A DNA stretch of 64,000 nucleotides, from positions 196,040-260,039 of the forward strand of contig JANNXA010000010.1 in NCBI GenBank assembly GCA_031409275.1, written 5' to 3'. The notes beneath the pieces were generated by a model. It saw nothing but the letters and a program-made list of their open reading frames with translations. It was not told the DNA's origin and did not search any database. This document shows, in pieces, positions 6,024 through 62,520 of this stretch (positions are counted from its first letter, which is position 1; the number at the start of each line of letters is the position of its first letter). Source of the DNA: Planctomycetota bacterium. Its GTDB lineage: Bacteria > Planctomycetota > B15-G4 > SIAN01. Made by a program: the position numbers and the translations under genes.

Positions 6024-6058
6024 GCAACCGCTCGCCAACGGGAACGAGCGGCCGTTGC
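6024..6058. terminator. GC-rich hairpin between convergent genes, possible terminator
   Basis: CCGCTCG (6028-6034) pairs with CGAGCGG (6045-6051), extended by GCAAC/GTTGC; no U-tract. Confidence 0.3.
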
Positions 6059-6099
6059 GGGTCGCTCGCGTTACCGCGCCGTCACTCCTGGCGCATCGA

Positions 6100-6588: not shown

Positions 6589-6605
6589 GGGCAAAGCTCC
6601 GCGCG

Positions 6606-7450: not shown

Positions 7451-7535
7451 TCGCTTTCCTCGCGAGAGCTGAGTTGCAGCCATTTCTTCGGCGCAACGTC
7501 CCGGTTCCGTGGAGCGAAAAGTGTTCTGCGCGCGT

Positions 7536-9844: not shown

Positions 9845-9848
9845 CGGA

Positions 9849-11149: not shown

Positions 11150-11160
11150 GACGTTCTCCT

Positions 11161-39111: not shown

Positions 39112-41622
39112 CTACTTCTTCACGGTCGCATCGAGCTGCAGCTCGACTTCGGCGAAACCGCAGCCGCTCCGCTCCGGCGCGGGCGGCGCGAACTCGACGA
39201 TCTCGACGTCGATGCGCCGCACGACCTGCGCGGCGCCCAACGGCACGCGCCACTTGCGCTGCGCCCTCGCCCCGCTCGGCAGGTCGCCGGCGAGCTCGAT
39301 CGGCGTCCCCTTGCCATTCAACGTCACCTTCACCTTCGCCGGCCACGGTCGGTCGGCGCCAAGCCGGATCGGCGTCAGCAGCAGCACGTTGGCGCGCACC
39401 GGCTTCTCGAGCTCGATGGTGAGGCGTGGGCTGCGGTCGGAGTCGTTGCAGCTCCAGCCTCGCGTGACAAGTCCGTCGCACGCGAGCGAGCCGTCCCACG
39501 ACTCGTCGTGGCGGCTCGACGCGACGACGTTGGGCTTCTGCACGCCGAGCAGGTTCTTGCGCGGATCGCCCGAGTAGCCGAAGAGCACCGGGTCCAGCAC
39601 GCCGCGCACCGTCACCGCCAGCAGCGACGACTCGAGCACGATCTCCTCGCTGGCCGCTGCAGCACCGTCGCTCGCGGCCGCGTCCGCGGGAGCGCTCGCC
39701 GGCGGCGCTCGCAATGTGACGCGCGCGAAGAGCGAGTAGTCGCCCGGCAGCGGGAATGAGAACTGCCCGCCGAACCGCTCCTGGCCGCACGGCTGCCCGC
39801 CGTCCTTCTCGATGCGCGCGATGGCGCGCGAGTCAGACTCGCCGGGCAGGCCGACCGCGTGCCACTCGACCGACTTGACGCGCAGCCCGCGCCCCTCCTC
39901 GCCCGGCCACTCGTGGGCGGTGCGTTCGGCCTCGCCCCACGACGAGATCCAGAAGGTGAGCGGAGCGTCGCCGCTCGCGCGCAAGCTGATCGGCTGCGCC
40001 GGATCGTCGGTGCCGTAGGTCGATGGCGAGCGGCCCGAGCCGCCGGTCGATGCCGCCGTCGCGCGCGTGAGGAAGAGGAGCGCCCACGCCGTGCTGCCGA
40101 GCGCCCCGCCGCCGAGCGGCGGCCACGCGCCGCTCCCCTCCTGCTTGCCGATCAGCCAGCGCGCTCCCTCGCGGTACCAGCGATGGCCACCGAACTCCTC
40201 CTGCTGCAGCAGCGCGCCGAGCCGCTCGACGCCATAGAGGTAGTAGTAGGTCCAGGAGCCGTCGCCGCGCGGGTTGCCGTCGACGATGAAGTTCTGGCCG
40301 AGCCACTCGGCGCCGCGCCGCGCGGACGCGATCAAGCCGCCGGACTTGCTCTTGCCGCGCAGCTGCTCGTCGCAGATGGCGAGGATCGACGCTCCGGCCG
40401 ACGTCATGCTGCCGGTCGCCACCGCGCCCGGCGCGTACCGGAAGCCGAGCGGCGCGTACGCCCCGCCACCCGCGTCATCGAGCACCGAGATCACGTACTG
40501 CGCCGCCTTGTCCCACGCCTCGGGCGCGACCTTGAGCCCGTGCTGCGCGGCGGCCCGCAGTCCGAGCACGCCGTATTGCGTGTTGGAGAGGTCGCCACCA
40601 GCGCCCGGCTTGTAGGCGAAGGAGCCGTTCGGGAGCTGATTGCGCAGCAGCGCCTCGAGCAGCTCGCGCATCCACGCCTCCGTGGTCGGGTCGCGCAGCG
40701 CGTGCAGCGCCATCAGCTGGCAGCCGATCGTGTAGGTCTCGATCGGCTTGGCGCACTTGAGCCATTCGAGGGCGCGCACCACCGCGGGGTCGCCCTTCGG
40801 CACGCCGCTCTTCAGCAGCGCGTAGAGGATCAGCGACGTCCCGCCGTTGCGGTATCCGGCCTGGTCGAGATCCCAGCTTCCATCGAACAGCTGCTCGGAG
40901 AGCAGCCAGCTCGTGCCGCGGTCGATCGCTCCGCTGATGCGCGCCTGCACGTCGCCCCAGCTTCGCTCGTCGGCCGGCTGCTCGGCGCGTACCGGCGGCG
41001 GTGCATCAGTCGCGCTGATGCGCACGCACCCGGCGATGTGCTGCGCGCCGTGCTCGAAGCGCAGCTCGAGGGTGAGCAGGTCACCGGCAGCGGCGCTCGC
41101 CTCCTTCGAGAACTCGACGACGAGGTGTTGCGGCGCGTCGAACTTCGGACCGACCGCCCAGCCGCCGGCCGGCTGCCCATCCAACACTCCGAGCGCGGCG
41201 AAGCCCTCCTGCGACCACGACGCGCTGGCCTTCTGCAGGACGATCATCTTCGGCCGCTTCGCGCCTTTCGGCCCGATCGCCGCCGTCATCTCCGAAAGCA
41301 CGAAGTTGCCCTGCGCGCGACCGAGCCCGCCGGTCGGCAGGGACGGATCACGGAGCACCTCGAGGCGCAGAGCGGTCACTTTCGGCGGCAGGCCGGCGAG
41401 CTGCAGCGTCCAGCTCTCCTTGTCGGGGCAGGCGCCTTGCGCCAGCAGTGCGCCATCCTCGCGCGTGACGAACGTGGTGGGTTGCGTCGAACTGCCCTGC
41501 ACCAGCGTCAGCGGCCGCCAACTCGGTGCCGCCGCCTCCTGCACCGCGACCGGCGCTGGCGCAACCGCCACACGGACGGCCGACGCGGAGAGCGCGACGA
41601 CGAGGGCGGGGAGGAGGGGCAT
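39112..41622 (-). CDS. Secreted protein: planctomycete beta-sandwich, prenyltransferase/squalene-cyclase-like (alpha/alpha) barrel, discoidin-like C-terminus (paralog 1)
   Basis: Signal peptide; ALRLEVLRDPSLPTGGLGRAQGNFVLSE; QLFDGSW, DLSNTQYGVLGLRAA, YYLYGVERLG, WYREGARWLIGKQEGSGAW; AEVEL at C-terminus. Confidence 0.7.
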   Translation of the reverse strand: MPLLPALVVALSASAVRVAVAPAPVAVQEAAAPSWRPLTLVQGSSTQPTTFVTREDGALLAQGACPDKESWTLQLAGLPPKVTALRLEVLRDPSLPTGGLGRAQGNFVLSEMTAAIGPKGAKRPKMIVLQKASASWSQEGFAALGVLDGQPAGGWAVGPKFDAPQHLVVEFSKEASAAAGDLLTLELRFEHGAQHIAGCVRISATDAPPPVRAEQPADERSWGDVQARISGAIDRGTSWLLSEQLFDGSWDLDQAGYRNGGTSLILYALLKSGVPKGDPAVVRALEWLKCAKPIETYTIGCQLMALHALRDPTTEAWMRELLEALLRNQLPNGSFAYKPGAGGDLSNTQYGVLGLRAAAQHGLKVAPEAWDKAAQYVISVLDDAGGGAYAPLGFRYAPGAVATGSMTSAGASILAICDEQLRGKSKSGGLIASARRGAEWLGQNFIVDGNPRGDGSWTYYYLYGVERLGALLQQEEFGGHRWYREGARWLIGKQEGSGAWPPLGGGALGSTAWALLFLTRATAASTGGSGRSPSTYGTDDPAQPISLRASGDAPLTFWISSWGEAERTAHEWPGEEGRGLRVKSVEWHAVGLPGESDSRAIARIEKDGGQPCGQERFGGQFSFPLPGDYSLFARVTLRAPPASAPADAAASDGAAAASEEIVLESSLLAVTVRGVLDPVLFGYSGDPRKNLLGVQKPNVVASSRHDESWDGSLACDGLVTRGWSCNDSDRSPRLTIELEKPVRANVLLLTPIRLGADRPWPAKVKVTLNGKGTPIELAGDLPSGARAQRKWRVPLGAAQVVRRIDVEIVEFAPPAPERSGCGFAEVELQLDATVKK

Positions 41623-41751
41623 CGCTGGAACCTCGCTGCGAAGACGCAACAACCGCGGCGCGTTCTAGCCGCCCCCGGCGGCAGGGTCACCCCGCACGTG
41701 CAGCGCGCGGCACGCGGCGCGCCGCGCGCCGCGCGCCGCGCGGGGCACCTG

Positions 41752-44313
41752 TCAGCGACCGCCGCCTTTCGGCTCGCTCTTCTCGCCGGGCTTGCCGCCG
41801 CCCGACTTCTCGGCGACCTTCTCGGCCTGCAGCTCGACCTCCGCAAAACCGACTGCTTTGTCGGGCGTCGAGCTCTCCTGCTTGGAGAGCACCTTCACCT
41901 CGATCTTGCGGATCACCACCGCCTGCGTGAGGCGCAGGCGCAGCTTGGGCGGCGCGTCGTTGGCCGCGACGTCGATCAGCAGCGGCGGCTGCTTCCCGTT
42001 CAGCGTGACGGCGAGCTTGGTGATGCGCGACAGGTAGGTGTCGCCGATGCGCGCCGGCGTCAGCACGATCGTGTTCGCGCGCACCGGTTTCTCGAGCTCG
42101 ATGGTGAGCGTCGGGATCGGGTCCTCCTGGCCCGCCGCCCAACCGCGGCACTGCAGATTGTCGACCGCATGCGCGGGCAGCCAATCCCCGTTCAGCGTGG
42201 AGGAGGCGGACGCCGTGAGCTTCTGGCCGAAGAGGAGGTTCCTGCCCGGATCCTTGGCGCACTGCAGCAGCTCGGGGTCGATCGCCTCCTCGATGCGCAC
42301 TTCGAGCGGCGTCGATTCGAGCGTCACCGCTTCGGGGACGGCGCCTTCCGCGGCGGGCGGCGCGAGCAGCGTCACCTTCGTGCCGATGGTGTAGGTGCCG
42401 GGCAGCGCGAAGCTCCATTGCGCGCCGAAGCGCTCGCGTCCCGCGGGCTGGTCGCCCGGCTTCTCGATCAGCCCCACGACGCGCCCCGCTTCGCCGAGGC
42501 TGCCGCCGCGCGCCCACCACTCGACCTTCGTCACCCGCAGGCCGCGGTCCTTGTCGATGGGCCACTCGTAGTGCGCCACCTCCGGATCGCCGAAGCTCGA
42601 GATCCACATGGTGAGCGGCGTGTCGCCGGACGCACGCACGTTGATCGGCAGCGCCGGATCGTCACCGCCGTAGAGGCGCACACGGCGCGACGACTTGCCC
42701 GACGCCACCGCGGTGGCCCGCTCGAGGAACAGCAGCGCGAAGCAGGTGTTGATCGGCAGGTCGCCGTACGCGCTGCCCCACTGTCCCTTGTCACCCTGCT
42801 TGTCGCACAGGTGCCGCGCGCCGTCGCGATACCAGTCGCGCCCGCCGATCTTTTCGAGCTTCATCAGGCCGCCGACGCGCTCGAGACCATAGAGGTAGTA
42901 GAGGTCCCAACGGTCGTGGCCTTCGTTGATGTTGTCGTCGACGGTGTAGTGGTCCGCGAGCCACTGCACGCCGCGCTTCGCCGCTGCGAGGTAGCCGGCC
43001 GCCTTGCCTTTGCCCTGCAACTGCTCGTCCGCAATGGCGAGGATCGAGGTGCCGGCGGCCGTCATGCTGCTGGTCGGCTTCTGCCCGCCGTTGTAGGTGA
43101 AGCCGAGCGCGGCGTAGGCGCCCTTGCCATCTTCCGACTCCCACTGCAGGACCTGTTGCGCCGCCTTCTCGAAAGCGGCGGGCGGCACCGCGATGCCGTG
43201 CTGCGCCGCGGCGCGCAGGCCGAGCACGCCGTACTGCGTATTCGAGAGGTCGACGCCGCCCCACGGGTAGTTGAAGGCGCCGCCGCGCTGGAACGACAGG
43301 AGCGTGTCGGCGAGCTCCTTCATCCACGGCAGCAAGGTCGGATCGTCCATCGCGCCGAGCGCCATGAGCTGGCAGCCGAGCGAATAGGTCTCCTTTGCCG
43401 GATTGCTGCGCAGGTACTCGATCGCACGCTGCACGGTCGGGTGGCGCTGGTTCACGCCGCTCTTGCGCAACGTGTAGAGCGCGAGCGCCGTGCAGCCGTT
43501 GCGGTAGGTCCACTGCTCGTGGTTCCACGAGCCATCGATCGCCTGGTTCTTGATCAGCCAATCGACGCCGCGATCGATCGCGTTGTTGATGCGTTCCTGC
43601 AGCTTGCCGAGCGTCTCCTCCGCGGCGGCGCCGCCCACCCGCACGGGCCTCGGCTGCGTCGTCGCCGCGATGCGGAAGCGGCCCATCGCGTGCTGCGCGC
43701 CCCAATTGAAGTGGAGCTCCAGCCGCAGCAGCGCCGGACCACCGAAGTCGAGGTCGCGCTTCGTCTCGACCATCAGCACGTGGTTGGCGCCGGTCGCTCC
43801 GAACACCGCCCAGCCGTTGCCACCCGACTGCAGCTCACCGTCATGAACGTCGGTGGCGCGGCGGTTGCCTTCGATGAAGTCGCAGCTCGCGTTGCCGATC
43901 GGCGACGGCTTGAAGCGAACCGCGAGCTTCGCCGACGCTTCCAGCACGAGCTCGTTCAGCACGAAGTTGCCGTTGCCGGCGCGGCCCGGTCCACGCTCAG
44001 GCAATGCGTCGTCGGCCAGCGCCTCGAGGCGAAGCGCCGTCAGCGGCCGCACGTCGGTCTCGAAGTCGAGCGTCCAGAGGTCCTTTTCGGGATTGGCGCC
44101 GCTGACCGCGATCGAGCCGTCGGGAAGCACGGTGAACGTGGCGCCCCCTTCGGAGGCGAGCTTCACCGGCTTCAACACGACCCACGGATCCGCCACCGGA
44201 GCTGCGGCCGGTGGCGACTGGGCCGCGATGGAGGGAGCCAAGGACGCCAACAGCACCCACGTCGTCAAACGACGTCGCCGGTGGATGGCGGAGCGGTGGG
44301 AAGTGGGGGTCAT
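41752..44313 (-). CDS. Secreted protein with the same architecture (paralog 2)
   Basis: ALRLEALADDALPERGPGRAGNGNFVLNE; QAIDGSW, DLSNTQYGVLGLRAAAQHG, YYLYGLERVG; TIELEKPVRAN shared with paralog 1. Confidence 0.7.
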   Translation of the reverse strand: MTPTSHRSAIHRRRRLTTWVLLASLAPSIAAQSPPAAAPVADPWVVLKPVKLASEGGATFTVLPDGSIAVSGANPEKDLWTLDFETDVRPLTALRLEALADDALPERGPGRAGNGNFVLNELVLEASAKLAVRFKPSPIGNASCDFIEGNRRATDVHDGELQSGGNGWAVFGATGANHVLMVETKRDLDFGGPALLRLELHFNWGAQHAMGRFRIAATTQPRPVRVGGAAAEETLGKLQERINNAIDRGVDWLIKNQAIDGSWNHEQWTYRNGCTALALYTLRKSGVNQRHPTVQRAIEYLRSNPAKETYSLGCQLMALGAMDDPTLLPWMKELADTLLSFQRGGAFNYPWGGVDLSNTQYGVLGLRAAAQHGIAVPPAAFEKAAQQVLQWESEDGKGAYAALGFTYNGGQKPTSSMTAAGTSILAIADEQLQGKGKAAGYLAAAKRGVQWLADHYTVDDNINEGHDRWDLYYLYGLERVGGLMKLEKIGGRDWYRDGARHLCDKQGDKGQWGSAYGDLPINTCFALLFLERATAVASGKSSRRVRLYGGDDPALPINVRASGDTPLTMWISSFGDPEVAHYEWPIDKDRGLRVTKVEWWARGGSLGEAGRVVGLIEKPGDQPAGRERFGAQWSFALPGTYTIGTKVTLLAPPAAEGAVPEAVTLESTPLEVRIEEAIDPELLQCAKDPGRNLLFGQKLTASASSTLNGDWLPAHAVDNLQCRGWAAGQEDPIPTLTIELEKPVRANTIVLTPARIGDTYLSRITKLAVTLNGKQPPLLIDVAANDAPPKLRLRLTQAVVIRKIEVKVLSKQESSTPDKAVGFAEVELQAEKVAEKSGGGKPGEKSEPKGGGR

Positions 44314-44370
44314 GGCGGGCGCGGACAATAGCCCGCCGCGGGGCCACGCGGGTCTCAGGGGTACTCCCCC

Positions 44371-48036: not shown

Positions 48037-48096
48037 CGCGCGCTCCGGCCGCCGCTCCGGAACGAGCCGGAACGGGAACTTGTTTCCCGTCCGTCG

Positions 48097-48124: not shown

Positions 48125-48143
48125 GCGGGAGGCGGAAAGCGCG

Positions 48144-49483
48144 TCACTCCTGCCGGGCCACCACGACGTCGAGCGGAAAGGCCCAAGCGCGCAAGCGCTG
48201 CCGAGGAAGACGCCGCTGACGGTCGCCTCCAATTCCCCCGCCGCGTGCAGATCGCCAGCGAGGTCGCCGCGCACGTGCAACTTCGATGCAGCGCGAAGCT
48301 GCAGCGAGCCGACCGTCATGAGGCCGGCGCGCAGCTCGACCTCACGCGCCCGTTCGACTTCGAGCGGCGATGCCAGCGGCTCCACCACCGCGAGCCGATC
48401 CGCGGAGAGCGCCGCGCGCGGCCAACGACCGTCCACTTCGCGCCAGCCCTCCACGATGCGGTCGACCGCCGGCCCCGCCGCGCGGCGCGCGCTGTGGAGG
48501 AAGGTCGCCCGCGAATAGAGCAGCAGGTCGAGCTGCCGCGACCAGTCGGCCCGCGCCGGCTCGAGCCCCATCGCCGCGCACCACTGCGGCCGCCGCAACG
48601 GATGGTCGGCCGGCAACGCACGGAAGTCGATCGCGCCGACGCGTGCGCCGGCGGCCTCGAGCGCCGCCTCGATCGACCCGGGCGCTGGGCCTTGGAGAGC
48701 GTAGGAGACACCACGAGGCAAACCGGTCTCGCCGCGCCACGATGTGCAGCCGACGACGCGGACCGCGGCGCCGAAACGGCGACGAGCGAGCTCCGCGAGC
48801 GTGTCAATCCCGGCGAAACGCCGATCGGTCGCTCCCTCCTCGACCGCGCTTTGCGACTCGAGCGTGCCCGGCTCCGAGAGGCCGTGGAAGCCTCCGGTCC
48901 AGACGATCACCTTGGCGAGCGGATCAACATGCTCGAGGTACCAGACGAGGGAGTTCGCCATGAACTCGTCGCGCGGATTGGTGAGGAGGAGCGGCTGACG
49001 AGGATCAAGGGAGTCGGAGGCGCCCGCGTACCACCCTCCTTGCGCCGCGAGTCCCATCTGATGGAGCGTGAACTCCTGGCGGCAGGCTTCGATTTCTTCG
49101 CGATCGGCGGCGCGTTTCGCCGCGGTTGCATCGCCCCCGCTCTGGTCGAGCCGCGCGACCATCGACTCGATCGCCGAGATCGACGCGCCGCGATCCGGCA
49201 ACGCCTCCGCGATTCGCCGCAGGAACGGGCCAAGCTCCTCTTCGATCGCAACCGCGCCCGCGTCATCGGTACGTCCGATCGCACCGCACTTGCAGTTGAG
49301 CCCGAAAAGGTCGAGAGGCCGATCGCTGCGCTCGGTCGCGACAACGTAGTCGAACAGCTGATCGAGCGCTGAAGCCTGCGACCAAAGAGGCGCGATGCCG
49401 TGACGACGGGCAAGATCGGCGCCGCTCGTCAGCCGCGGCCGCGCGTGCCGGCGGAGCCACCGCTCACAAATCGGCGCTTCCAT
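48144..49483 (-). pseudogene. Erythromycin esterase (EreA/ChaN-fold)-like gene, N-terminally truncated, probable 3' frameshift
   Basis: LWSQAS...LFDYV...PLDLFG, RDEFMANSLVWYL...KVIVWTGGFH, GSIEAAL, DWSRQLDLLL resemble Ere. The GExxHG motif is absent. The frame as read continues to 47570, 467 nt into the next same-strand gene; an out-of-frame TGA lies at 48144-48146. Confidence 0.5.
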
Positions 49484-49850
49484 CGACCGGTGCTGCAAGG
49501 AGAACCGCACCGCACACGAACCAGCTCGCGATCCAGGGTGCGCCATCGCCGATTGCGGCGATCACCGGCCCCGCGCCTGGCATCCAGCGCGAGACTCCGG
49601 CGCCCGGAGCGAGACTCGCAAGAACGAGAAGCGCGGCGCTCGTCACAGCGACCAGCGCAAGCGCCACTCTCCGCGTCGGCCGGCGCGCGAACAGCATCAC
49701 GAGGCAAGATTCCAACACCGCGGCGGCGATCGCGTCGCGGGCTCGAGGAATCTCGAACAGACGCGAAGCCGCACTGCCAGCCAGCAGGAGCGCGAGCCCA
49801 ACACAAGCGACGTCACGCTCGGACACCCTCGTACCACTCGTGGTTCCCAT
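49464..49850 (-). CDS. Small multi-pass membrane protein (MauE/DoxX-like topology)
   Basis: 128 aa with about four hydrophobic segments; starts 2 nt after the upstream stop; AAAVLESCLVML resembles DoxX-type helices, but there is no CGC motif. Confidence 0.5.
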   Translation of the reverse strand: MGTTSGTRVSERDVACVGLALLLAGSAASRLFEIPRARDAIAAAVLESCLVMLFARRPTRRVALALVAVTSAALLVLASLAPGAGVSRWMPGAGPVIAAIGDGAPWIASWFVCGAVLLAAPVDGSADL

Positions 49851-49852
49851 GG

Positions 49853-52390
49853 TCAGTTTCCCTCCAAGCTCGAGTGATGACCAACCCGTGCGAGGAAGTC
49901 GGCAGGGTCGAGCAAGAACATGTCGGAATGCTCCGAAGTGTGGCACGCCGCGCACCGTTCAAGCCCGGGCTCGCCCACGATGGCATCCTGATCACCACCC
50001 TTGGCGACGTGTTGGCCTCCCGGACCATGACACACCTCGCAACCCACGTCGCGCAGCGCCGGATCCGGGCGCTCGAACTCGTAGCCGCTCGGCTGATCAA
50101 AGCCGACGACGTGGCATGCGACGCAGTTGCGCACCCCCTGCCGCTGCGCGCGCTCCAGAGTCTTCCATGCCGTGGCGTGCGGAGAGGCCGACCAGTCCGC
50201 GTGCTCGGCGGCATGGCAGGTCACGCACTTCGCGCTACCGACATACGCATTGCCGGCGACCGCCCGCGGTTCGACGAAGCGAAGCTCAACCGGTCCGTCG
50301 TCCTGCTCGAGGACCTTCCGAGCTCGCTCGCGGAAACGCGCCCGCGCCGGCGCGTCGTGCGCCGAGCCGCGCAGGTCGACCTCGGCGACGGACACTCGAA
50401 TCCCAGGTCGCCATTCGACCCGCTTGACGAAGTAGGCTCCGAGCGGCGCGAAGGCGATCGGCTGCCCGCCAACCGCACCGTCGACCTGATCGCGGACGAT
50501 GCGATCTTCTGCGATGCGAGGGAGCAGTCCGTCACTCGAACAGAACAGCACCGGCCGCCCGGCAGCGGCTGCGATTCGCGCGGCTTCGGCGGGATCGATC
50601 GCCCCGGCGACGATCAGGGCAGCATCCAAGGGAGCGGCAGCGATCTGCGCAACCACGGCGTCGACCGGATCCCGGATCTCGAACATCGCGTCGATCAGCT
50701 CCGCAGTCGCGCGACCGGCATGACGAGCCCTCTCTCGCGTAACGCCAATGATGCGGCAGCGGCCGGCGTTGCCAACGACTTCGGTGAATGGGCGCAGTTG
50801 CATACGCCCGACTCGCACGACGACGTTGCACGCGACGAATTGCGCGACGGCGATGTCCGAGCCTGCGAGATCGCCCGCCGCGAGCGACTCGAGCTCTCGC
50901 ACTCCAGGTACCCAAGCCGCCACCGCGAGCTCGGTAGCGGACTGAAGCAGCAGCTCGTTCGCCTCGCGTCGGTAACCGGAACGAGTCGGCACACCGAGCA
51001 CCTCTCCCAGCAACAACCGGATCTCATCCGCCGCGGGCGGCACCGCCCACCGCGTGTAGAGATCGATGAATCCGCCGCCCTGGGACGCCTTGCAACCGCA
51101 GCTTTCCAGGTAACCGCCGTGATCGTTGGCGAGCTCGACCGTCCACGTCGGTGCGATCGGCGACGCCGCATCCGACCGCGCGTCCCCTGCCACCTGGGGC
51201 GCAGGGACGACCGTCGAACGCATGCGAATCGCGTCGATCGCCGCCGCAACGCTCGCTGCCGGGTCCGCCCAAAGCCGGACATCGTTCGCGGCTGCGCGGT
51301 CAGCCACCCATCGCGACACCTCACGTGCGACGGCTTCGGGGTCCCACTGGATCTCCGCCGCGAGCGACGCACGCAACCGTGCGAGCACGTGCGGCGCCAG
51401 GAGTTCAATCACCCGTTCCTGCTCGATGACCCCCGTCACTTCCTGACAAGCGAGGAACGCCTCCAGGTCCCCGACTCTCGCCAGTCGATGGCGCATCCGC
51501 TCCTCCGCGAGCGGACCGGCGAACACCATGGCCCCGCCGAATAGCGCGTGCTGCAGCAAATCGGCGGCGGCGGCAGTGCAGGCCAGCGTCGCAGGTGCGC
51601 TCGCCGACGCCCCTCCTGCGACCAATCGGTCGAGGACCGCCCGTGCGGCCAGCGAGAAACCGACCGTCGACGAAGCATCTGCGAAAGGTCCGATGAGGAG
51701 GTTGGAGAAGACGTGCGGCGCGGCCTCCTCATCACCGAACTGCCCGCGTCGCCGTACAACCCAGTAATCCGGCGCCTTGTCCCCGTCGCCGCCGACGAGG
51801 TCGCGATCAACCGCGGCAAGGCGATCGAGCCTCGCGACCACCTGCGACGCCAGATCGACGTCGTCATGCTCCGGCGCGACCACCCAGGCGGAATGGTTGG
51901 CCGTACCGATGATCGACCAAGCGGGGCCCGCGAAGGCGACCGTCCTCCCATCGAACGCGAGCGGCAGATCTCGCGTGGCAACTGAGTCACTAGCCTGCGC
52001 AAACGCGACGGTTCGTCGATCAAGCGCCGTCGGCACCATGCGAGCGTCGAGGGTGAATCCGCGCCCGCAGCGACGCGCCCCCAACGACTCCGCCAGCTTC
52101 CGTGGGATCACGGTCTGCTGACCATCGAAGAGAGTTGCCGCCCCGCTCGGCAGGAGCTCGGCGTGCCGGCTTCGCGCGACTTGCTCGAGTCCTCGCGGCA
52201 AGGCGAACGGAGCCGTCCCACCAGCCTCGAACTTTGCCGTGAGGACCAGCATGTCGTCGACGACTTCGTACGAGCATCTCGCCGGCAACAACGGCTCACG
52301 ATTGCGCCAAGCCGCCACGGGCGCACACGCCATCCCGACGAGTGCCGCCACTCGCGCGAGTCGTGGAATGTCACGTTTCGATCTGCCCAC
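49853..52390 (-). CDS. Exported multidomain protein: unknown N-terminus, UshA/5'-nucleotidase-like domain, tetraheme cytochrome c554-like domain
   Basis: NDHGGYLESCGCKASQGGG; YVGSAKCVTCH, CVACH, CEVCHGPGGQH, CAACH (four CxxCH); GTG start after GGAG. Confidence 0.8.
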   Translation of the reverse strand: MGRSKRDIPRLARVAALVGMACAPVAAWRNREPLLPARCSYEVVDDMLVLTAKFEAGGTAPFALPRGLEQVARSRHAELLPSGAATLFDGQQTVIPRKLAESLGARRCGRGFTLDARMVPTALDRRTVAFAQASDSVATRDLPLAFDGRTVAFAGPAWSIIGTANHSAWVVAPEHDDVDLASQVVARLDRLAAVDRDLVGGDGDKAPDYWVVRRRGQFGDEEAAPHVFSNLLIGPFADASSTVGFSLAARAVLDRLVAGGASASAPATLACTAAAADLLQHALFGGAMVFAGPLAEERMRHRLARVGDLEAFLACQEVTGVIEQERVIELLAPHVLARLRASLAAEIQWDPEAVAREVSRWVADRAAANDVRLWADPAASVAAAIDAIRMRSTVVPAPQVAGDARSDAASPIAPTWTVELANDHGGYLESCGCKASQGGGFIDLYTRWAVPPAADEIRLLLGEVLGVPTRSGYRREANELLLQSATELAVAAWVPGVRELESLAAGDLAGSDIAVAQFVACNVVVRVGRMQLRPFTEVVGNAGRCRIIGVTRERARHAGRATAELIDAMFEIRDPVDAVVAQIAAAPLDAALIVAGAIDPAEAARIAAAAGRPVLFCSSDGLLPRIAEDRIVRDQVDGAVGGQPIAFAPLGAYFVKRVEWRPGIRVSVAEVDLRGSAHDAPARARFRERARKVLEQDDGPVELRFVEPRAVAGNAYVGSAKCVTCHAAEHADWSASPHATAWKTLERAQRQGVRNCVACHVVGFDQPSGYEFERPDPALRDVGCEVCHGPGGQHVAKGGDQDAIVGEPGLERCAACHTSEHSDMFLLDPADFLARVGHHSSLEGN

Positions 52391-52449
52391 GGAGGACTCC
52401 AATCGCACCGGCTTCGACTGTCACGACCGGCTCAATGACGCATCTCAAA

Positions 52450-52496
52450 CCGAGCGCTCCCCGGGTCGCGGAGCAACCGCAACCCGGGCCGCTCGG
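52450..52496 (-). terminator. Long GC hairpin directly downstream of the peptide gene (attenuator or mRNA stabiliser)
   Basis: Nested stems CCGAGCG/CGCTCGG, CCCGGGT/ACCCGGG and GCGG/CCGC. Confidence 0.6.
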
Positions 52497-52502
52497 GACG
52501 CT

Positions 52503-52799
52503 TCACGAATCGAAGCAACCGACCTGCTTGATCTTGTCGGGACGAATCGTCGGGTGGCCATTGGCATCCCAGCAGTTCTGTGCGCACTGCTGCTGCTCGA
52601 CCAAGATGCAGATACCGTTGCCCATGTTGCATTCCCAACCGCGCGTAAGCGGACCGGAGCACATCGAGAGCGCAACCTTCGGTGAGGCAGTCGTGTGGTC
52701 GTATGGGAACGTCGGCGAGTACTGAGCAACCGAGATCCCCACCAGACTCAGCACTGCAAGCCCGACTGCGGCCACGGATCGGACATGTCGCCTCGTCAT
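52503..52799 (-). CDS. Small secreted six-cysteine peptide (98 aa precursor)
   Basis: GAGGAG RBS 7 nt upstream; signal peptide MTRRHVRSVAAVGLAVLSLVGISVA; mature region QYSPTF...GCFDS with six Cys; composition unlike the Arg/Ala-rich shadow ORFs. Confidence 0.8.
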   Translation of the reverse strand: MTRRHVRSVAAVGLAVLSLVGISVAQYSPTFPYDHTTASPKVALSMCSGPLTRGWECNMGNGICILVEQQQCAQNCWDANGHPTIRPDKIKQVGCFDS

Positions 52800-52986
52800 C
52801 TTCGATCTCCTCGATGCGGCGTCGGCGTCAGAGCCCGATGCCGCAGGAACACGACTCGCGATGCGACCCGACTCCGGGCGCTTCGCGAGACCGCGTCATC
52901 AGTGTTCGCCGACCTGCATGTCTGTCTTGCGCAAGTTGTGACGAACCGGTCCGCCCGCGCGCTACCATCCGCCCGCGCCCCCACCG

Positions 52987-53607
52987 ATGAACGCCTCCAA
53001 CTCCCACACCGACGACGCTTCACGCGAGCCGACCGCGTTCGACGAGCTCGAACTCGTGCGTCGCGCCGTCGCTGGCGATCCGACGGCTCGCGCCGCGCTC
53101 GCGCCCTACTTCGCGAAGGTGCCGCGCATCGTGGCGGCGCTCTGCCGGCAAAGCGGCACGCGCGTCGCGCCGCAGGACCAGGACGACGTGGTGCAGGACT
53201 GCCTCGCGCTCCTCTGGCGCAAGCTCCCCGACTTCGCGGGTCGCGCGCGCCTCACCACCTGGCTCTTCCGCGTCGTCTCGCTCGAGCTCAAGAACGCGTT
53301 GCGCCGTGTCGCCAAGCGGAAAAGAAGCGCCGCCCCCGCGGACGCTCACGAGCGGGAAGAACCCTCCAGCAGCGCCGACGATCCGAGCGGCCGTCTCGGC
53401 ACCCTCGCCGCCGAGGAGCTACTCGCCAGGCTCGAGCCGACACCAATGGAGGTGGTGCGGAGGCGCCACTGGGAGGAGCAGACGTTCGAGGAGATCGCGG
53501 CAGAGCTCGGACTCAAGGTGAGCCAGGCGAAGAGCCTCTACTACCGGGCGCTGCAGCGACTGCACGGCTTCCTGACCGAGCCGGGCGCGGGGGGTACTCG
53601 CGGATGA
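52987..53607 (+). CDS. ECF sigma-70 factor
   Basis: ELVRRAVAGD, DQDDVVQD, FAGRARLTTWLFRV, region 4 TFEEIAAELG...KSLYYRAL. Confidence 0.92.
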   Translation: MNASNSHTDDASREPTAFDELELVRRAVAGDPTARAALAPYFAKVPRIVAALCRQSGTRVAPQDQDDVVQDCLALLWRKLPDFAGRARLTTWLFRVVSLELKNALRRVAKRKRSAAPADAHEREEPSSSADDPSGRLGTLAAEELLARLEPTPMEVVRRRHWEEQTFEEIAAELGLKVSQAKSLYYRALQRLHGFLTEPGAGGTRG

Positions 53608-54299
53608 ACGATCGATCGATGGCGGGCGGAATGGACGAGAACGAGAAGCGCACGAACGACGCCGACGAGCTGATGGCGGCGGTGGTCGCCGGCGACATCG
53701 TGCGCAACGATCCGCGCGTCGAAGCGCTGCCGGCAAAGCAGCGCGCCCAACTCGACGCGCTGCTGCGCACTCAGGCGCGGCTCGACGAGGCGGCCGAGGA
53801 CGAGCAGGCGTTGCTGGCCGAGATCGAGCGCGGCGACGTCGCGCCGACCGCCGCGACGCCCGGCCCGCGCCGACTCGCCTCGACGTTCTGGCTGCGCGCC
53901 GCGGGCATCGCCGCGATGGCGGCGGGCCTGCTGCTGCTGGCCCAGACGCTGCGCACGACCGATCCGGTCACGCCGATCGGCAGCGGTCAGCTCGGAAGCG
54001 AAGTCGCCATCGAACTGCTCGCGCCGCGCGGCGCCGTCGACGCCTTCGCGCCGTTCCGATGGCAAATGGCCGACGCGCCGCCGCTCTCGCGCTTCGTGCT
54101 GCTGATCTGGGATGGCGGCGGTGCGGCGCCCGAAGCAGGTGGCCGTCCGCTGATCGAACGCGACGTCGATGGGACGCAATGGACGCCCGCCGCCGGCGAT
54201 CCGCCGCTGCCCGATCGCATCGCGTGGCGCGTCGATCTCCGGCCGCTCGATGGAGCGCGCCAGCGCGGGCCGGTGGAGAGCGCTTGGCGGGATCGCTGA
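53604..54299 (+). CDS. Putative single-pass anti-sigma factor with extracytoplasmic beta-sandwich domain
   Basis: ATGA overlap with the sigma gene; helical N-terminus, TM FWLRAAGIAAMAAGLLLLA, then LLAPRG...FRWQ...FVLLIWD...WRVDL. Confidence 0.7.
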   Translation: MNDRSMAGGMDENEKRTNDADELMAAVVAGDIVRNDPRVEALPAKQRAQLDALLRTQARLDEAAEDEQALLAEIERGDVAPTAATPGPRRLASTFWLRAAGIAAMAAGLLLLAQTLRTTDPVTPIGSGQLGSEVAIELLAPRGAVDAFAPFRWQMADAPPLSRFVLLIWDGGGAAPEAGGRPLIERDVDGTQWTPAAGDPPLPDRIAWRVDLRPLDGARQRGPVESAWRDR

Positions 54300-56794
54300 G
54301 AGCAGCGCCACTCCGTTCGCTCCTCCTCGCGGCAGCGACCGCGACGGGTGGTGGAATGGTGTATTCGCGGGAAACGGCGCAAGCGGAGCCGCAACTCCAG
54401 CAACAGGGCGCGCCGCAGGAGCTGCTCGACGAGTGCCGGCTGCGGCTCGCCGATCCGCTGGCGAAGACGGTCGACTTCGAGCAGCTCGCCTATCGGCTGG
54501 TGAACGATCTCCTGTACGACGAGAACTTCCTGGCACAGGTCGATCTGCCGGCGTTGCTCGACCAGCTGAAGCGCGAAGGGCGGGCCGTCGCGCGGCGTGC
54601 GGGCGGCGCCTACCCGCTCACCTTCGACTACGAACTGGCCAATGCCGCGCTGCTGGCGGGCCACGCGACTCTCGCCGGCGAGCTGCTCACCGAAGCACTC
54701 CCGCAATGGCCCGACGACGTCGGACTCCTGGCGCTGGCCGCCGAGCAGGCGATGGCGACGGGCCACTGGAATCTCGCGCGCCAGCACCTCGAACGCGGCC
54801 GCACGATCACGGCGGCGCAGGAGGCCCCCGGCAGCATCGACCGAGTGATGAGCGCGACACTCAAACTCGAACAGATCCTCTTCGACGTCCGCCTCGGCCG
54901 CGCCGACCGCGCGCTGCTGGAGCTGGACGCGCTGCTGAAACGCGGCGGCGAGCCGGCCGAGATCAGGCGCGCCGCCCAAGCGCGAAAGATCGATCTCCTC
55001 CTGCTGGTCGATCGCGCTGACGACGCGCTGGCCGCCATCGACGCGGTGCCACAAGAGGAGTTCAGCGCCGACCTCGCCGCCACTCGCGTCATCGCCCAGT
55101 CGGCCGTGGCGAACCGTGACGACGTCGACGCGACCTTGCTGCTCGACCAGCTCGAAGCGCTCCCTCACCAGCAAGGCATCAGCAAGACGCCGGTGCTGAT
55201 CGCAAGGCTCGCCGCGGCGGAGCTGGCGCTGCGAATCGGGCAGCCCGATCGGGCGCGCGCGGCGATCGACGCCATGGCCACCGAGCTGCCGCGCCAGGCG
55301 GCCGCGAACGGCCTCTTCCTGCGCGAGCGCGCATGGGCGCGGGCGATCGAGGGACGACTCGGACGCCCGGACGCGACGTCGACCGAGCGCCCCGGCGCAA
55401 CCGCCTTCGCGATGCTGCTCGACGAGTGGCGCATGACGCCGCTGCTGCCTGGCGGCATCTCCTTCCTGCGCAGCGGCGCGCGCCGCCTGGTGATCCACGC
55501 GGCGTTGGCGGCCGCCGGCGACGACCTCGCCGCGTTCGAGCTGCTGCTCGCCGCGCAGACGATGGGGTCGCTCGCGCGGCAGCTCGAACTGCCGGCGCCG
55601 ACGTTGCCCGAACTGCGCCGTGAGCTGCTCGCTGCCGGCGAAGTGCTGCTGACCTGGTTGCCGACGACCGACGCGACCCACCTCTTCCTGGTCGACGCGA
55701 CGCGCGTGCGCCACTTCACGCTCCCTTCCGAACGGGAGACGCGCGACGTCGCCAACGCGCTGGCGTCGGCGCGCGGCGTCGAGGCGCGCCGCCCTCACCT
55801 CGCGGCGCTGGCCGCCGCGCTGCTGCCCGATGAGGTTCGCGTCGCACTGGCCGGCGCACGCCATGCGTGGCTCTGCGGCAGCGAGCTGCTGGAGGGCGTG
55901 CCGCTGCTCGAACTGGAGGTGGCGCCTGGCGTGCGGCTGGGCGCGCAGCTGCCGATCGCGGAACTCCCCTCGTTGCCGGTCGCACTCTGGCTGCGGCGCC
56001 GTCCGCGCGCGACTCGCGAGGCGGGCATCGATGCGTGGGTCGGACCCGAGACGAGCCTCAACGGAAAGGCGCGCTTCACCTTCGATCGCGAGAAGTTCGC
56101 GGAGACGGTGCCGACCCTCCGCTACGTCGAAGGCGACGGCAGCGCTGCCGGCGAACGCTCCTCGTTCGGCCAGGAGCTCGGCCGCCGGCTGGCGCATGAC
56201 GTCGGCCTGTTCGTGGCGCATGGCGTCATCGATCGCCACCGCGACCGTTTCGCTGGGCTGCTGCTCCTGGGCGGCGACGACCCCGAGCGCACCGTGGCGT
56301 GGGCCGACGCATTCGAGCGCGCGACGCTGCCTCCCTTCCTGGTGATGGCCGCGTGCTCGGCCGGCGAGGCGCCCAATCGCATCGGCGAGGATGGTGGCGA
56401 GCATCTCGGCGGCGCGGCGCTGATCGGCGGCGCGCGCTGCGTCGTGCTGGGCCGCGGGATGCTCAGCGCGGGCGAGACGTTGCCCGAGCTGGTCACGCTG
56501 CTGCGCGGCGTCACCGCGGGCGAACCGCCGGCAACCGCGCTGTGGCAAGCGCGCCGCGAGCGGCCAGCAGACCAGCCCTTCGTCGGCCTGGCGGTGATCG
56601 GGCTCGGCGACGAGCCGTTGCGCGAACGCAGCGGCGACGACGAGTGCCCGGCGCTCTTTCCCAACGCGATCGCAGGCGCGGCACATCGCGGCATCGGCGG
56701 CTCATCCATCGCGAGGGTCGGCGCGGCGCTCTTGCTGCTCGGCGGCGGGTGGCTGCTGCTGGCGAGCGGCCGGCGGCGAGCGGCGCAGCGCTGA
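54284..56794 (+). CDS. TPR-like and CHAT (caspase-like) domain protein with signal-like N-terminus and C-terminal TM anchor
   Basis: TTG start after GGAGAG (inferred). CHAT motifs LEGVPLLEL, FVAHGV (His), VMAACSAG (Cys), GARCVVLG, PATALWQAR. C-terminus VGAALLLLGGGWLLLASGRRR. Confidence 0.82.
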   Translation: MAGSLRAAPLRSLLLAAATATGGGMVYSRETAQAEPQLQQQGAPQELLDECRLRLADPLAKTVDFEQLAYRLVNDLLYDENFLAQVDLPALLDQLKREGRAVARRAGGAYPLTFDYELANAALLAGHATLAGELLTEALPQWPDDVGLLALAAEQAMATGHWNLARQHLERGRTITAAQEAPGSIDRVMSATLKLEQILFDVRLGRADRALLELDALLKRGGEPAEIRRAAQARKIDLLLLVDRADDALAAIDAVPQEEFSADLAATRVIAQSAVANRDDVDATLLLDQLEALPHQQGISKTPVLIARLAAAELALRIGQPDRARAAIDAMATELPRQAAANGLFLRERAWARAIEGRLGRPDATSTERPGATAFAMLLDEWRMTPLLPGGISFLRSGARRLVIHAALAAAGDDLAAFELLLAAQTMGSLARQLELPAPTLPELRRELLAAGEVLLTWLPTTDATHLFLVDATRVRHFTLPSERETRDVANALASARGVEARRPHLAALAAALLPDEVRVALAGARHAWLCGSELLEGVPLLELEVAPGVRLGAQLPIAELPSLPVALWLRRRPRATREAGIDAWVGPETSLNGKARFTFDREKFAETVPTLRYVEGDGSAAGERSSFGQELGRRLAHDVGLFVAHGVIDRHRDRFAGLLLLGGDDPERTVAWADAFERATLPPFLVMAACSAGEAPNRIGEDGGEHLGGAALIGGARCVVLGRGMLSAGETLPELVTLLRGVTAGEPPATALWQARRERPADQPFVGLAVIGLGDEPLRERSGDDECPALFPNAIAGAAHRGIGGSSIARVGAALLLLGGGWLLLASGRRRAAQR

Positions 56795-56839
56795 GCACTC
56801 GAGTGCGACGCGCTCCGCGACCGTCGAGCGCCGACGAGA

Positions 56840-56874
56840 GCGCCCCGCCGCGCACGGATGGCGCGACGGGGCGC
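56840..56874. terminator. Hairpin between convergent genes
   Basis: GCGCCCCG pairs with CGGGGCGC; inner CGCGC/GCGCG. Confidence 0.4.
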
Positions 56875-56903
56875 AGAAGGTCTGCGATTCGCAAGAGCGT
56901 CCG

Positions 56904-58631
56904 CTACTGGCACTGACCCGGCGCCGGCGGCCCGTACGGAACCGACGGCGGCGTCGAGGGAGCAGTGGGCGGCGGCATGCGACGAATGCGAATGAAGCCG
57001 GCGATGCGGGTGGTCGTGCCGCACTTCGGCACCGCCTGGTAGACCGTCCAACTCGGATGGTTCTCGCCATCAGCGAGAAGAGCCTGGATGTTCTCCTCCG
57101 ACTTGTCGAAGGCGCCGATGATCGCCGGCGACGAGTCCGTCACCGCTCCGCTCTCCACCTTCACCAAGCGCGTCTGGATCACGTACATCGCGCTGGTCGG
57201 CGATGCGTAGAACTTGATCTCGACGTCGTCCGGCTCATTCGGCTCGGGTACCAGCACTTCAGCGATCAACTTGCGGCAGTAGCTGACCGGCGTCGTCGTG
57301 TAGGTCCCGTAGGTCCCGTTGTTCGCGTCGACGAAGGCGAGTCGATACACCAAAGACTCGACGAACCAGGTCGGGTCGGACGCGAGCGCGCCCGCGCTGC
57401 CCAGTCGGGCGATGACGTGCGCACGTTGCGTCGTGGGGTTGATGATCTCGCTGCATGTCTCGTCCGGAGTGAAGTCGTTCACCACCGTCAGCGCCTGCGG
57501 CACTGCCGGCGTGTCGACCAGGGCGAGCTCCTGCGTGCTGGCGAGCGGCACGACGAAGTCGTCGTAGCGATCGCCGCCGAGATCGCCGACGCACGGGCGC
57601 ACCGCCGGGGTCGCGCCCGAACCGCCAAGATCGAACGCGATCTGGGTGCCGTACTGGAAGGGCGCCCCGCCGGAGGTCTGCTGCGGGAAGAGCCACAAGG
57701 CGCTTTCGCCGCCGCGCATCACCGCGAGGTCCGTCGACGTGTCGTCATTGAAGCGGCCGGCCGCCATCGCGCCGAAGGCGTCGCTGGTCGTGAAGCAGAG
57801 CGCGGCACCGCCGAGGTCGATGACGAAGAGGTAGCGCGTCGCATCGCCGGGAGTCGCGGTCGCTGCCGTGAACCACGCCACGCGGTCGTTGGTCTCGGAG
57901 GCCTCGTTGCGGCGAACCAGGGCCATCGAGTCGAGGTCGGGGCGCACCGACGAGGAGGTCGACAGCACCGTGCCGCCGGCCGAGAGGATGCGCAACGCCG
58001 CCTGGTCGTTGATCACCAGTTCCGGCTCAACCGAGTTGGCGTTGAACTCGCCCGCCGCGAGGTTCTTCACGTCGCTGGCCGCGGTCCACTCGAAGCGCCG
58101 CGTGTTGGCCCAGGTCCCGTTCGACTGCTGGATCTTGGCGTCAGTGCTGCGGCCGTTGGCCAGCAGCACGAGGAGGTCGTCATCGCCATCGTTGTCGAGG
58201 TCGGCGACCACGACACGCTTGGCGTTCTGCCACGCCGACGTCGTGTCGACCGCGGTGAAGAGCGGTCCGGTGGCCGTCTCTTTCATGGTCCACAGGCCGT
58301 CGGAAGCCGCCAGCACCAGCAGGTCGCGATCTCCGGCGACTGCCTGGCCGTCGACCGTGAGCGTCGCCACATCGTTGACGTTCCCGGTCGTGGCGATCAC
58401 CGATCCGCCGCCGGAGACGGCCGCTGCATCGAACTGGACCAGATGGTTCGCGCTGACGACGACCACGTCGGTCCGGTGATCCCCGCTCAGCTTGGCCATG
58501 GTGGCACCACTGAAGGGCCCGGACCCAGGGTTGCCCGAGGGCCAAGGAAGCAGTTCGACCACCTGTCCGAGCGCCGGCGGCGCCAAGCCCGCCACAGCGC
58601 AAAGACCCAAGAAGCTGAAGGGACGTCGCAT
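56904..58631 (-). CDS. Secreted FG-GAP/VCBS-repeat beta-propeller protein with C-terminal extra domain
   Basis: Signal MRRPFSFLGLCAVAGLAPPALG; repeats VADLDNDGDDDLLV, AGRFNDDTSTDLAV, VGDLGGDRYDDFVV. Confidence 0.8.
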   Translation of the reverse strand: MRRPFSFLGLCAVAGLAPPALGQVVELLPWPSGNPGSGPFSGATMAKLSGDHRTDVVVVSANHLVQFDAAAVSGGGSVIATTGNVNDVATLTVDGQAVAGDRDLLVLAASDGLWTMKETATGPLFTAVDTTSAWQNAKRVVVADLDNDGDDDLLVLLANGRSTDAKIQQSNGTWANTRRFEWTAASDVKNLAAGEFNANSVEPELVINDQAALRILSAGGTVLSTSSSVRPDLDSMALVRRNEASETNDRVAWFTAATATPGDATRYLFVIDLGGAALCFTTSDAFGAMAAGRFNDDTSTDLAVMRGGESALWLFPQQTSGGAPFQYGTQIAFDLGGSGATPAVRPCVGDLGGDRYDDFVVPLASTQELALVDTPAVPQALTVVNDFTPDETCSEIINPTTQRAHVIARLGSAGALASDPTWFVESLVYRLAFVDANNGTYGTYTTTPVSYCRKLIAEVLVPEPNEPDDVEIKFYASPTSAMYVIQTRLVKVESGAVTDSSPAIIGAFDKSEENIQALLADGENHPSWTVYQAVPKCGTTTRIAGFIRIRRMPPPTAPSTPPSVPYGPPAPGQCQ

Positions 58632-58826
58632 CAGTCGACTCCGAAGTTGATGGCGAACAGCCAGATCAGGGAAGCCCCGCAGGTGCATTTGTGTTCGACC
58701 GCGGTCACTTCGTCAAGCCGCTCGGTGAAAAGGCGGGCAACGAACTCCCGATCGTGACAACCGCCTGCTCGGCGGCCCAGACGCGCGCCCGGGCCGATCA
58801 AGCCGCCGCGCCGCCGCGCCGCTCCT

Positions 58827-62449: not shown

Positions 62450-62520
62450 GAAGAGCTCCAAGAAATCGGCAGGTTGACGTCGATCTCGAATTGGACCGTG
62501 GAACGCGGTGCGGGACGCCG

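What the first reader, a model, noticed from the sequence alone, without database searches (positions are those of the whole stretch)
48144..52799. Cys-rich secreted peptide operon with redox/maturation-type partners, divergent from the CHAT-ECF module
Seen: a 98-aa precursor (RBS, signal peptide, mature part starting with Gln, six Cys), then a long hairpin, then three tightly packed genes: a CGC-containing tetraheme protein, a small membrane protein and an Ere-like protein. The block looks richer in A/T-ending codons than its flanks (judged by eye). Known: precursor-hairpin-accessory layouts are typical of peptide clusters in which the precursor mRNA is in excess. Inference: a disulfide-rich signalling or toxin peptide with dedicated extracytoplasmic folding/processing proteins, possibly both the output and the ligand of the adjacent CHAT-ECF system. 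I do not recognise this as a described system.
Basis: partly seen in the sequence, partly recalled or inferred. Interest (0 to 1): 0.75.

Follow-up and report, generated by a model that had tools for sequence, protein, structure and literature searches.

The report
Secreted miniprotein with dedicated heme maturase
This is a rare, patchily distributed planctomycete gene cassette in which a new family of six-cysteine, likely secreted miniproteins sits in front of a four-heme cytochrome carrying a Cys-Gly-Cys motif, a membrane protein and a hydrolase, so it likely encodes an undescribed way of oxidising and trimming an exported peptide, although the hydrolase gene of this particular copy is broken.

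Summary
Real and conserved. The 98-aa six-Cys protein belongs to an unnamed family: 10 database proteins plus 2 more found in genomes, with no Pfam/NCBIfam family or fold match. The order peptide – hairpin – large Cys-Gly-Cys/tetraheme protein – small membrane protein – hydrolase recurs in G002, G169 and G328, across three classes of one phylum. The hydrolase is Ere-like in two loci and trypsin-like lipoproteins in two. The large protein is an N-terminally extended, divergent relative of the UshA-like (seleno)protein NF041198, with its nucleotidase metal site lost. Best reading (about 0.5): a dedicated periplasmic thiol-to-heme oxidase folds the exported miniprotein, and a peptidase trims it. 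Corrections: the Ere-like gene here has lost about 100 N-terminal codons including the GExxH motif, and has no stop at 48144. The 4.8-kb block is missing at the same site in G004, which keeps the ECF–CHAT module, and G169/G328 have no CHAT gene beside it. The CHAT link is therefore optional and the ligand idea unsupported. Not found in the papers searched or in earlier scan notes.

The parts
52503..52799 (-). Precursor of a likely secreted six-Cys miniprotein (98 aa); new family, predicted compact beta-sheet fold
   Evidence: (pLDDT 81.6); no family; no fold match
52441..52501 (-). Long GC-rich stem-loop right after the peptide stop, with no U-run longer than three; likely stabilises the precursor mRNA or limits read-through
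   Evidence: z -3.5; equivalent hairpins of different sequence in G002, G169, G328 and G068
49853..52390 (-). Large exported protein (845 aa from the GTG with a GGAG site): ~400-aa N-terminal region of uncertain family, UshA/SoxB-fold domain with lost metal ligands and an invariant Cys-Gly-Cys (residues 431-433), and a c554-type tetraheme domain (residues ~720-820)
   Evidence: NF041198 119 bits, cut-off 275; Foldseek 5'-nucleotidase/SoxB
49464..49850 (-). Small membrane protein, 3 predicted TM segments, no conserved Cys; weak DoxX/MauE resemblance only in the G169/G328 homologues; C-terminal end altered by the deletion
48179..49477 (-). Remnant of an erythromycin-esterase-fold (Ere) hydrolase gene: lacks the lipoprotein-type signal and the GExxH motif, and runs off without its own stop at the 3' end
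48130..52934 (.). Extent of the accessory block: absent from the syntenic site of G004, which matches the window up to 48129 and again from 52935
52987..56794 (+). Neighbouring ECF sigma, anti-sigma-like gene and CHAT-domain protein (His-Gly and Ala-Cys motifs present, C-terminal TM); optional neighbour, not part of the conserved cassette

Best explanation
A likely horizontally moved cassette encodes a six-cysteine miniprotein that is likely exported and then likely oxidised to three disulfides by its own Cys-Gly-Cys/tetraheme enzyme, with a membrane partner and a hydrolase predicted to finish the job. Steps: (1) The precursor is made in excess because a stem-loop follows its stop codon (hairpin shown in 4 of 4 loci plus G068; the effect on transcripts is inferred). 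(2) Sec export and signal cleavage release a ~70-aa core (inferred from the hydrophobic N-terminus and family conservation). (3) The large periplasmic protein takes electrons from the core's thiols through its Cys-Gly-Cys. That motif lies in the loop after the first, now dead, metal-binding motif of the UshA/SoxB fold, at the place where relatives carry selenocysteine. Electrons pass to four c-type hemes and on to the membrane protein or another respiratory acceptor (domains and motif shown; chemistry inferred). This would give a private, DsbA/DsbB-independent oxidative folding route. (4) A lipoprotein hydrolase trims, releases or clears the product. It is Ere-fold in G000/G002, a trypsin-like pair in G169/G328, and an M28 peptidase beside the sister system in G068 (slot shown; role inferred). 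The product most likely acts outside the cell as a stable effector (antagonism or signalling); its target is unknown. In this genome the hydrolase is broken, so the cassette may be decaying.
For: Six Cys kept in 12 of 12 family members (the G328 member rests on a pattern written after seeing it, which hit only cassette peptides among 71,595 frames). Confident compact model. Same gene order in G002, G169, G328. P0004 and P0006 each lie on one Logan contig of 8280 bp, probably the same one. The 5 cassette enzymes form one clade, 100/100, within a clade of 8 at 96/99. The sister rows L056 and G068 also sit beside small Cys-rich secreted ORFs, while 0 of 19 other c554-domain loci with at least 2 kb upstream do. 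Cys-Gly-Cys is invariant in 5 of 5, and NF041198 is listed as a CxU selenoprotein family (PMC13188914, table passage). The G068 enzyme's N-terminal domain is an M61-type peptidase fold lacking HExxH (hhalign 83%, E 8e-6), the kind of domain that could bind a peptide. Mobility: empty site in G004, low GC3, a ~63% GC island in 70-81% flanks beside a transposase in G169, and 1 of 17 and 1 of 23 genomes positive in those classes.
Against: No biochemistry and no expression data. The broader UshA-like/c554 family is common without any peptide (156 of 401 genomes match, mostly through the heme domain), so its ancestral job is not peptide folding. L057, inside the clade, has no adjacent peptide. The membrane protein has no conserved Cys, and its DoxX/MauE link failed at profile level (E 0.32, within shuffles). 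The N-terminal region of the window's own clade did not align significantly to M61 (E 0.15) or to the sister domains (E 0.5). In lasso-peptide and bufferin clusters the DoxX/oxidoreductase genes proved dispensable (PMC9266682, PMC11626156, passages). The large-protein model is low-confidence (pLDDT 38).
Confidence: 0.5

Rival explanations
1. The small protein is a working partner, not a product. It is a periplasmic thiol carrier or metal/metalloid binder (SoxY-like or bufferin-like) that cycles on the SoxB-fold domain while the hemes move electrons, so the cassette handles sulfur, selenium or metal stress.
For: Foldseek places the middle domain with SoxB as well as the nucleotidases. Relatives are selenoproteins, and a multiheme Sec/Cys enzyme reduces polysulfide (PMC13510729, abstract and passages). 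Bufferins are Sec-exported Cys-rich 80-120-aa proteins under ECF control (PMC11626156, passages). An excess of the small protein suits a carrier or sink.
Against: A carrier would be expected to keep a reactive tail; here mainly the Cys spacing is kept and the sequence diverges fast (21-35% identity). The conserved hydrolase slot is unexplained. No sox or metal-resistance genes were noticed beside the cassettes.
Confidence: 0.2
2. The heme/Cys-Gly-Cys enzyme installs a modification beyond disulfides (thioether or aromatic cross-links, sulfur or selenium addition), making this a new RiPP class matured in the periplasm.
For: Dedicated enzyme, precursor, hairpin and peptidase layout. A multidomain ~850-aa enzyme seems elaborate for plain disulfides. 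MauG-type heme enzymes cross-link residues in an exported substrate (recalled).
Against: An even number of invariant Cys, and a confident fold predicted from the unmodified sequence. No invariant aromatic residue in 12 sequences.
Confidence: 0.15
3. The peptide is the output and/or ligand of the adjacent ECF–anti-sigma–CHAT module.
For: Divergent layout in G000, and probably in G002 from contig-end arithmetic. An ECF-like ORF lies upstream of the G169 peptide (Sigma70_r4_2 E 0.79 only). The CHAT dyad motifs are present.
Against: G004 keeps the module (CHAT 63% identical) with no cassette at the site and no peptide hit in a 91%-complete genome. The G169 and G328 CHAT genes are on other contigs. 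The module recurs with an FG-GAP-type neighbour and no peptide nearby.
Confidence: 0.1
4. Chance mosaic or dead island with no joint function.
For: The Ere gene is broken here; the block has foreign composition.
Against: Order and hairpin are conserved across three classes at 21-44% protein identity, and the enzymes form one clade.
Confidence: 0.05

Closest known systems
UshA-like (seleno)protein, NCBIfam NF041198 (UshA_like_PCGU), and family 2 NF049981
   Same: UshA-fold domain with a CxC/CxU motif followed by a c554-type tetraheme domain (profile positions 402-516 match the heme part).
   Different: Scores 114-123 bits against a cut-off of 275; has Cys instead of Sec and a ~400-aa N-terminal extension; forms its own clade tied to a peptide gene. 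The passages seen give no function or substrate for the family (PMC13188914, table).
Bufferin / gig-like operons (BufA, MNIO BufB, BufC, DoxX BufD; PMC11626156, passages)
   Same: Sec-exported 80-120-aa Cys-rich precursor that folds as a small protein, a small membrane gene in the operon, and ECF genes nearby.
   Different: No MNIO (DUF692) or DUF2063 gene; the precursor is not DUF2282; the putative maturase is a periplasmic heme protein; a hydrolase gene is present.
Class I lasso peptide SviE/SviF and MslE/MslF; sublancin thiol-disulfide oxidoreductases (PMC9266682, passages)
   Same: Peptide cluster with a dedicated membrane protein and a Cys-motif oxidoreductase proposed for disulfide formation.
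   Different: No thioredoxin CxxC domain, no lasso B/C enzymes, no ABC exporter; the oxidoreductase here carries its own four hemes.
Methylamine dehydrogenase biogenesis MauD/MauE/MauG (recalled, not read here)
   Same: Small exported disulfide-rich protein matured by a membrane protein, a thiol protein and a heme enzyme.
   Different: No large subunit or TTQ tryptophans; the membrane protein lacks the MauE CGC motif; the heme domain is c554-type, not a MauG peroxidase.
Erythromycin esterase family PF05139, including homologues in graspetide loci (PMC8939145, one passage)
   Same: Ere-fold hydrolase encoded beside a peptide precursor, function unclear.
   Different: No ATP-grasp ligase; the G002 protein has a lipoprotein-type signal and a C-terminal extension; the window copy is truncated.

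Membership tests
NF041198 UshA-like (seleno)protein | Whole-protein score at or above 275 bits | tested here: not met
   119 bits for the window protein, 114-123 for orthologues
NF041198 UshA-like (seleno)protein | CxU/CxC motif in an UshA fold followed by a tetraheme domain | tested here: met
   Cys-Gly-Cys invariant in 5 of 5; fold; PF13435
Active 5'-nucleotidase / SoxB metallophosphoesterase | Dimetal ligands DxH, GD, GNH(E/D) (motifs recalled) | tested here: not met
   The corresponding columns in A11 read DHG/QHV/DHN/DFF/NMD, G-E/N/G and PG-x-x-E; placed by eye from the strand pattern
Bufferin / MNIO RiPP cluster | MNIO (DUF692) and DUF2063 genes; DUF2282 or BUF_6/12Cys precursor | tested here: not met
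   No such Pfam hit for any cassette gene scanned; one Atlas feature hit named DUF2282 at 0.75, below the lead threshold; BUF_6/12Cys has no profile to test
DoxX / MauE membrane proteins | Pfam PF07681/PF07291 over cut-off; MauE CGC loop | tested here: inconclusive
   Weak hits only in G169 (E 0.025, 0.097) and G328 (E 0.046); profile-profile E 0.32; CGC absent
Erythromycin esterase PF05139 (window copy) | Complete domain with the N-terminal GExxH motif (catalytic role recalled) | tested here: not met
   Profile positions 1-57 missing; met in G002
SpoIVB peptidase S55 (downstream lipoproteins of G169/G328) | PF05580 hit; Ser motif G-x-S-G-S-P | tested here: inconclusive
   No PF05580 hit; Ser motif present in one copy of each pair, with weak trypsin-like hits E 0.01-0.04 for the G328 copy; S55 likeness is recalled
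M61/M1 gluzincin peptidase (N-terminal region) | Fold similarity and HExxH | tested here: inconclusive
   Sister proteins match M61 (E 8e-6 and 5e-4) without HExxH; the window clade only E 0.15
RiPP (post-translationally modified peptide) | Enzymatic modification of the core shown by mass | not testable with these tools
   Needs expression and mass spectrometry
Known disulfide-rich folds (knottin, defensin and others) | Structural match to a solved chain | tested here: inconclusive
   Foldseek best E 1.9; VIA-align best Z 2.5 of 48,161 chains

The most novel reading that the evidence does not exclude
The UshA-like CxC/CxU-tetraheme proteins of this clade are a new class of periplasmic peptide maturase that couples thiol chemistry directly to c-type hemes, in some members behind a dead M61-type peptide-binding domain. 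They serve several unrelated families of secreted cysteine-rich miniproteins and define a new class of exported ribosomal peptide products that moves between planctomycete classes and possibly to Nitrospira. This would give a first substrate for a selenoprotein family without a known function.
Probability: 0.35. Interest if true: 0.82.

Novelty: new variant of a known kind. Interest (0 to 1): 0.64.

Why it matters
It offers a concrete, testable substrate for the UshA-like CxU/CxC-cytochrome family, for which I found only a table listing and no function. It points to an oxidative-folding or modifying route that could run without DsbA/DsbB and possibly without oxygen. It also adds an unnamed family of small disulfide-rich bacterial proteins with no fold match, from a phylum whose peptide products are little known. 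The whole system is four or five genes and could be expressed in a laboratory strain.

Tried and rejected
Complex prediction of the peptide with the UshA+heme part gave no verdict (score 0.00). No RNA holder listed, so expression and read-through are untested. The peptide pattern scan of JGI metagenomes found no relative; plasmid tblastn found none for P0007 or a G169 downstream protein; a viral scan with the peptide alignment could not run. Atlas search with homologue P0007: best feature score 0.76, structure TM at most 0.38. No fold match for the peptide model. Peptide profile A7 missed the G169 and G328 peptides in a 401-genome sample that contained them, so genome-scan absences are soft. 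The contexts of P0005 and P0007-P0012, including the Nitrospira one, could not be fetched; a 25-genome search around G420 was empty. No sequence overlap between the two G002 contig ends. PDB sequence searches: none for the G002 Ere; only E > 0.1 for the trypsin-like alignment. One search used the wrong strand for two rows and was redone. Rejected: pyroglutamate as a family trait; active nucleotidase; assembly artefact for the Ere lesion; obligate CHAT link. Literature: 8 full-text searches found no description of this cassette; the library lacks most subscription papers, and no supplements were read. Earlier scan notes: 4 look-ups by words or sequence were empty.

Full report
Setting. The window is G000:C10:196040-260039, a 70% GC genome found in freshwater-sediment runs. 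The phylum, Planctomycetota, comes from earlier scan notes on this genome and from source names of relatives; I did not test it independently.

Observation. On the minus strand lie a 98-aa ORF (52503-52799, six Cys), a stem-loop (z -3.5), an 845-aa ORF with ESCGCK and four CxxCH motifs, a 128-aa membrane ORF and an Ere-like ORF. GC3 is 0.74, 0.76, 0.71 and 0.81, against a genome median of 0.88 over 3508 called genes. The G002 copies are close to their flanks (0.76-0.87 against 0.84-0.87).

The Ere gene is broken here. G002 has the same four genes in order. Its Ere protein is about 620 aa, with a lipoprotein-like start and the GEVH motif, and matches Pfam positions 1-335. The window copy matches 58-337. 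Membrane-gene homology runs straight into Ere homology, about 400 bp short of G002, and homology ends near 48180, close to the edge of the block. Logan contigs from two samples reproduce the stretch without a difference; either may be the source sample.

The block is an accessory insert. In G004 (same genus, 91% complete) the glycosyltransferase and the ECF gene stand back to back. The DNA matches the window up to 48129 and again from 52935, with 51 nt between. G004 keeps the CHAT orthologue at 63% identity. In G002 the cassette contig ends 121 nt above the peptide and the ECF contig 61 nt above the ECF start, 182 nt in all against 187 in the window. Adjacency there is likely but not shown (no overlap). 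In G169 and G328 the CHAT genes are on other contigs. ECF–anti-sigma–CHAT modules in this genus regularly face an FG-GAP-type gene (Pfam confirmed for the window and G002 copies).

The peptide is a new family. A two-sequence profile found 8 proteins among 1.84 billion representatives; the eight-sequence profile added two. All are about 100 aa with six invariant Cys. Named sources are a Planctomycetota MAG and a Nitrospira. No Pfam or NCBIfam family matches. AlphaFold2 gives a confident beta-rich core (pLDDT 81.6, about 90 over residues 31-98), with no match in Foldseek or VIA-align. It is rare: 2 of 42 genomes of the window's class, G000 included.

The cassette recurs in other classes. With the large-protein profile, 156 of 401 phylum genomes matched, nearly all through the heme domain; apart from G000, only G169 and G328 matched at E < 1e-100 (same two in the overlapping sample). 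Both read: peptide, hairpin, large protein, trypsin-like lipoprotein, membrane protein, second trypsin-like lipoprotein with the Ser replaced. The G169 peptide is a significant family member (E 4e-7 among 71,595 frames). The G328 peptide was not found by an independent profile and is placed by position and Cys pattern. The G328 large gene is interrupted at unread bases. The G169 cassette is a ~63% GC island beside a DDE transposase. P0004 and P0006 each lie on one 8280-bp Logan contig, probably the same one.

The large protein. Foldseek places the middle domain with 5'-nucleotidases and SoxB (best E 8e-7 to 3e-5, on a low-confidence model). The metal-ligand columns are degenerate and Cys-Gly-Cys is invariant. 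NF041198, listed as a CxU selenoprotein family (PMC13188914, table passage), has the same UshA-plus-heme layout, but the score is far below its cut-off. The tree has 38 rows: 53 loci examined, 1 without a target, 16 dropped for lacking the motif pattern, plus the window protein and P0004. The five cassette enzymes are one clade (100/100), inside a clade of eight (96/99) with L056, G068 and L057; the root is midpoint only. L056 is followed by an 88-aa eight-Cys secreted ORF. G068 is preceded by an 87-aa six-Cys secreted ORF and a 13-bp hairpin, and followed by an M28 peptidase. L057 has no such ORF. These sister peptides are not shown to be related to the window family (hhalign 10%). Of 19 other loci with at least 2 kb upstream, none had such an ORF. 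The 26 narrow loci with a target are uninformative: the G068 peptide itself was missed until a wider region was fetched. The G068 and L057 N-terminal domains resemble M61 peptidases without HExxH; for the window clade this is only a hint (E 0.15; score 19.4 against at most 13.9 for 15 shuffles).

Mechanism. Shown: conserved order, hairpin, six Cys, Cys-Gly-Cys plus four heme motifs, an interchangeable hydrolase slot, and patchy spread. Inferred: export, precursor excess, thiol-to-heme oxidation of the peptide, trimming, and an extracellular role. I put dedicated oxidative folding at 0.5, a carrier or metal/sulfur role at 0.2, chemistry beyond disulfides at 0.15, CHAT-ECF ligand at 0.1 and chance at 0.05.

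Comparison. It works like peptide clusters with private oxidation helpers: SviE/F and MslE/F, which proved dispensable (PMC9266682, passages), and bufferin operons with a Sec-exported Cys-rich precursor and DoxX (PMC11626156, passages). It is a member of neither: no MNIO, no thioredoxin domain, no lasso enzymes. Ere homologues beside precursors have been noted once without a function (PMC8939145, one passage). MccSep shows that Sec/Cys plus heme c can do sulfur chemistry (PMC13510729, abstract and passages). Eight full-text searches found no account of this cassette; subscription papers and supplements were not seen.

Verdict. A real, apparently undescribed mobile cassette built around a new miniprotein family and an enzyme clade of unknown function, with this genome's copy partly decayed. 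New variant of a known kind; interest 0.64.

Noticed in passing
window 52987-58688; L044, L046-L049, L051: The ECF sigma – anti-sigma – CHAT protein (C-terminal TM and Arg tail) module regularly faces a convergent secreted FG-GAP-type gene in this genus, in several paralogous copies. In L048 and L051 a ~1130-aa protein with two CxxCH motifs lies divergent from that gene. It looks like a signalling unit of its own.
   Followed up: partly
L136 (G068:C1) 7209-12360; L056 2-1679: Sister systems: a different small Cys-rich secreted family beside a CGC-tetraheme protein; in G068 the enzyme has a dead M61-type domain, a hairpin precedes it and an M28 peptidase follows.
   Followed up: partly
L057 1538-4123: M61-like + CGC + tetraheme protein with no adjacent peptide, convergent with an ECF/anti-sigma-like pair.
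   Followed up: partly
L052 (G000:C40) 5810-7309; L017-L020: G000 and its family carry a separate, syntenic CGC-tetraheme paralogue (YLDACGC) behind a conserved exported protein, with no peptide; probably the housekeeping form.
   Followed up: partly
L095 3070-3846 and 10015-11571: A degenerate ECF-like ORF sits just upstream of the G169 peptide on the same strand, and a DDE transposase flanks the island.
   Followed up: no
L140-L144: True MauE-family proteins of these genomes carry a CGC loop, the same tripeptide that the cassette has in its large protein but not in its membrane protein.
   Followed up: no
window 39112-44328: Two tandem ~850-aa exported proteins combining squalene-cyclase-like repeats with an F5/8 type C domain, next to an ECF gene and a Ser/Thr kinase; conserved in G004.
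   Followed up: no
window 61970-62524 and the contig end: A 184-aa ORF with an acidic, Cys-containing tail (NF047868 only E 0.11) begins an AT-richer stretch (60-65% GC) at the contig end; possibly another insert.
   Followed up: no
window 48076-48090: A short imperfect palindrome upstream of the glycosyltransferase gene is conserved in G004; possible regulator site.
   Followed up: no
G002: 19 CHAT-domain matches in one 78%-complete genome, against 4 each in G000 and G004.
   Followed up: no
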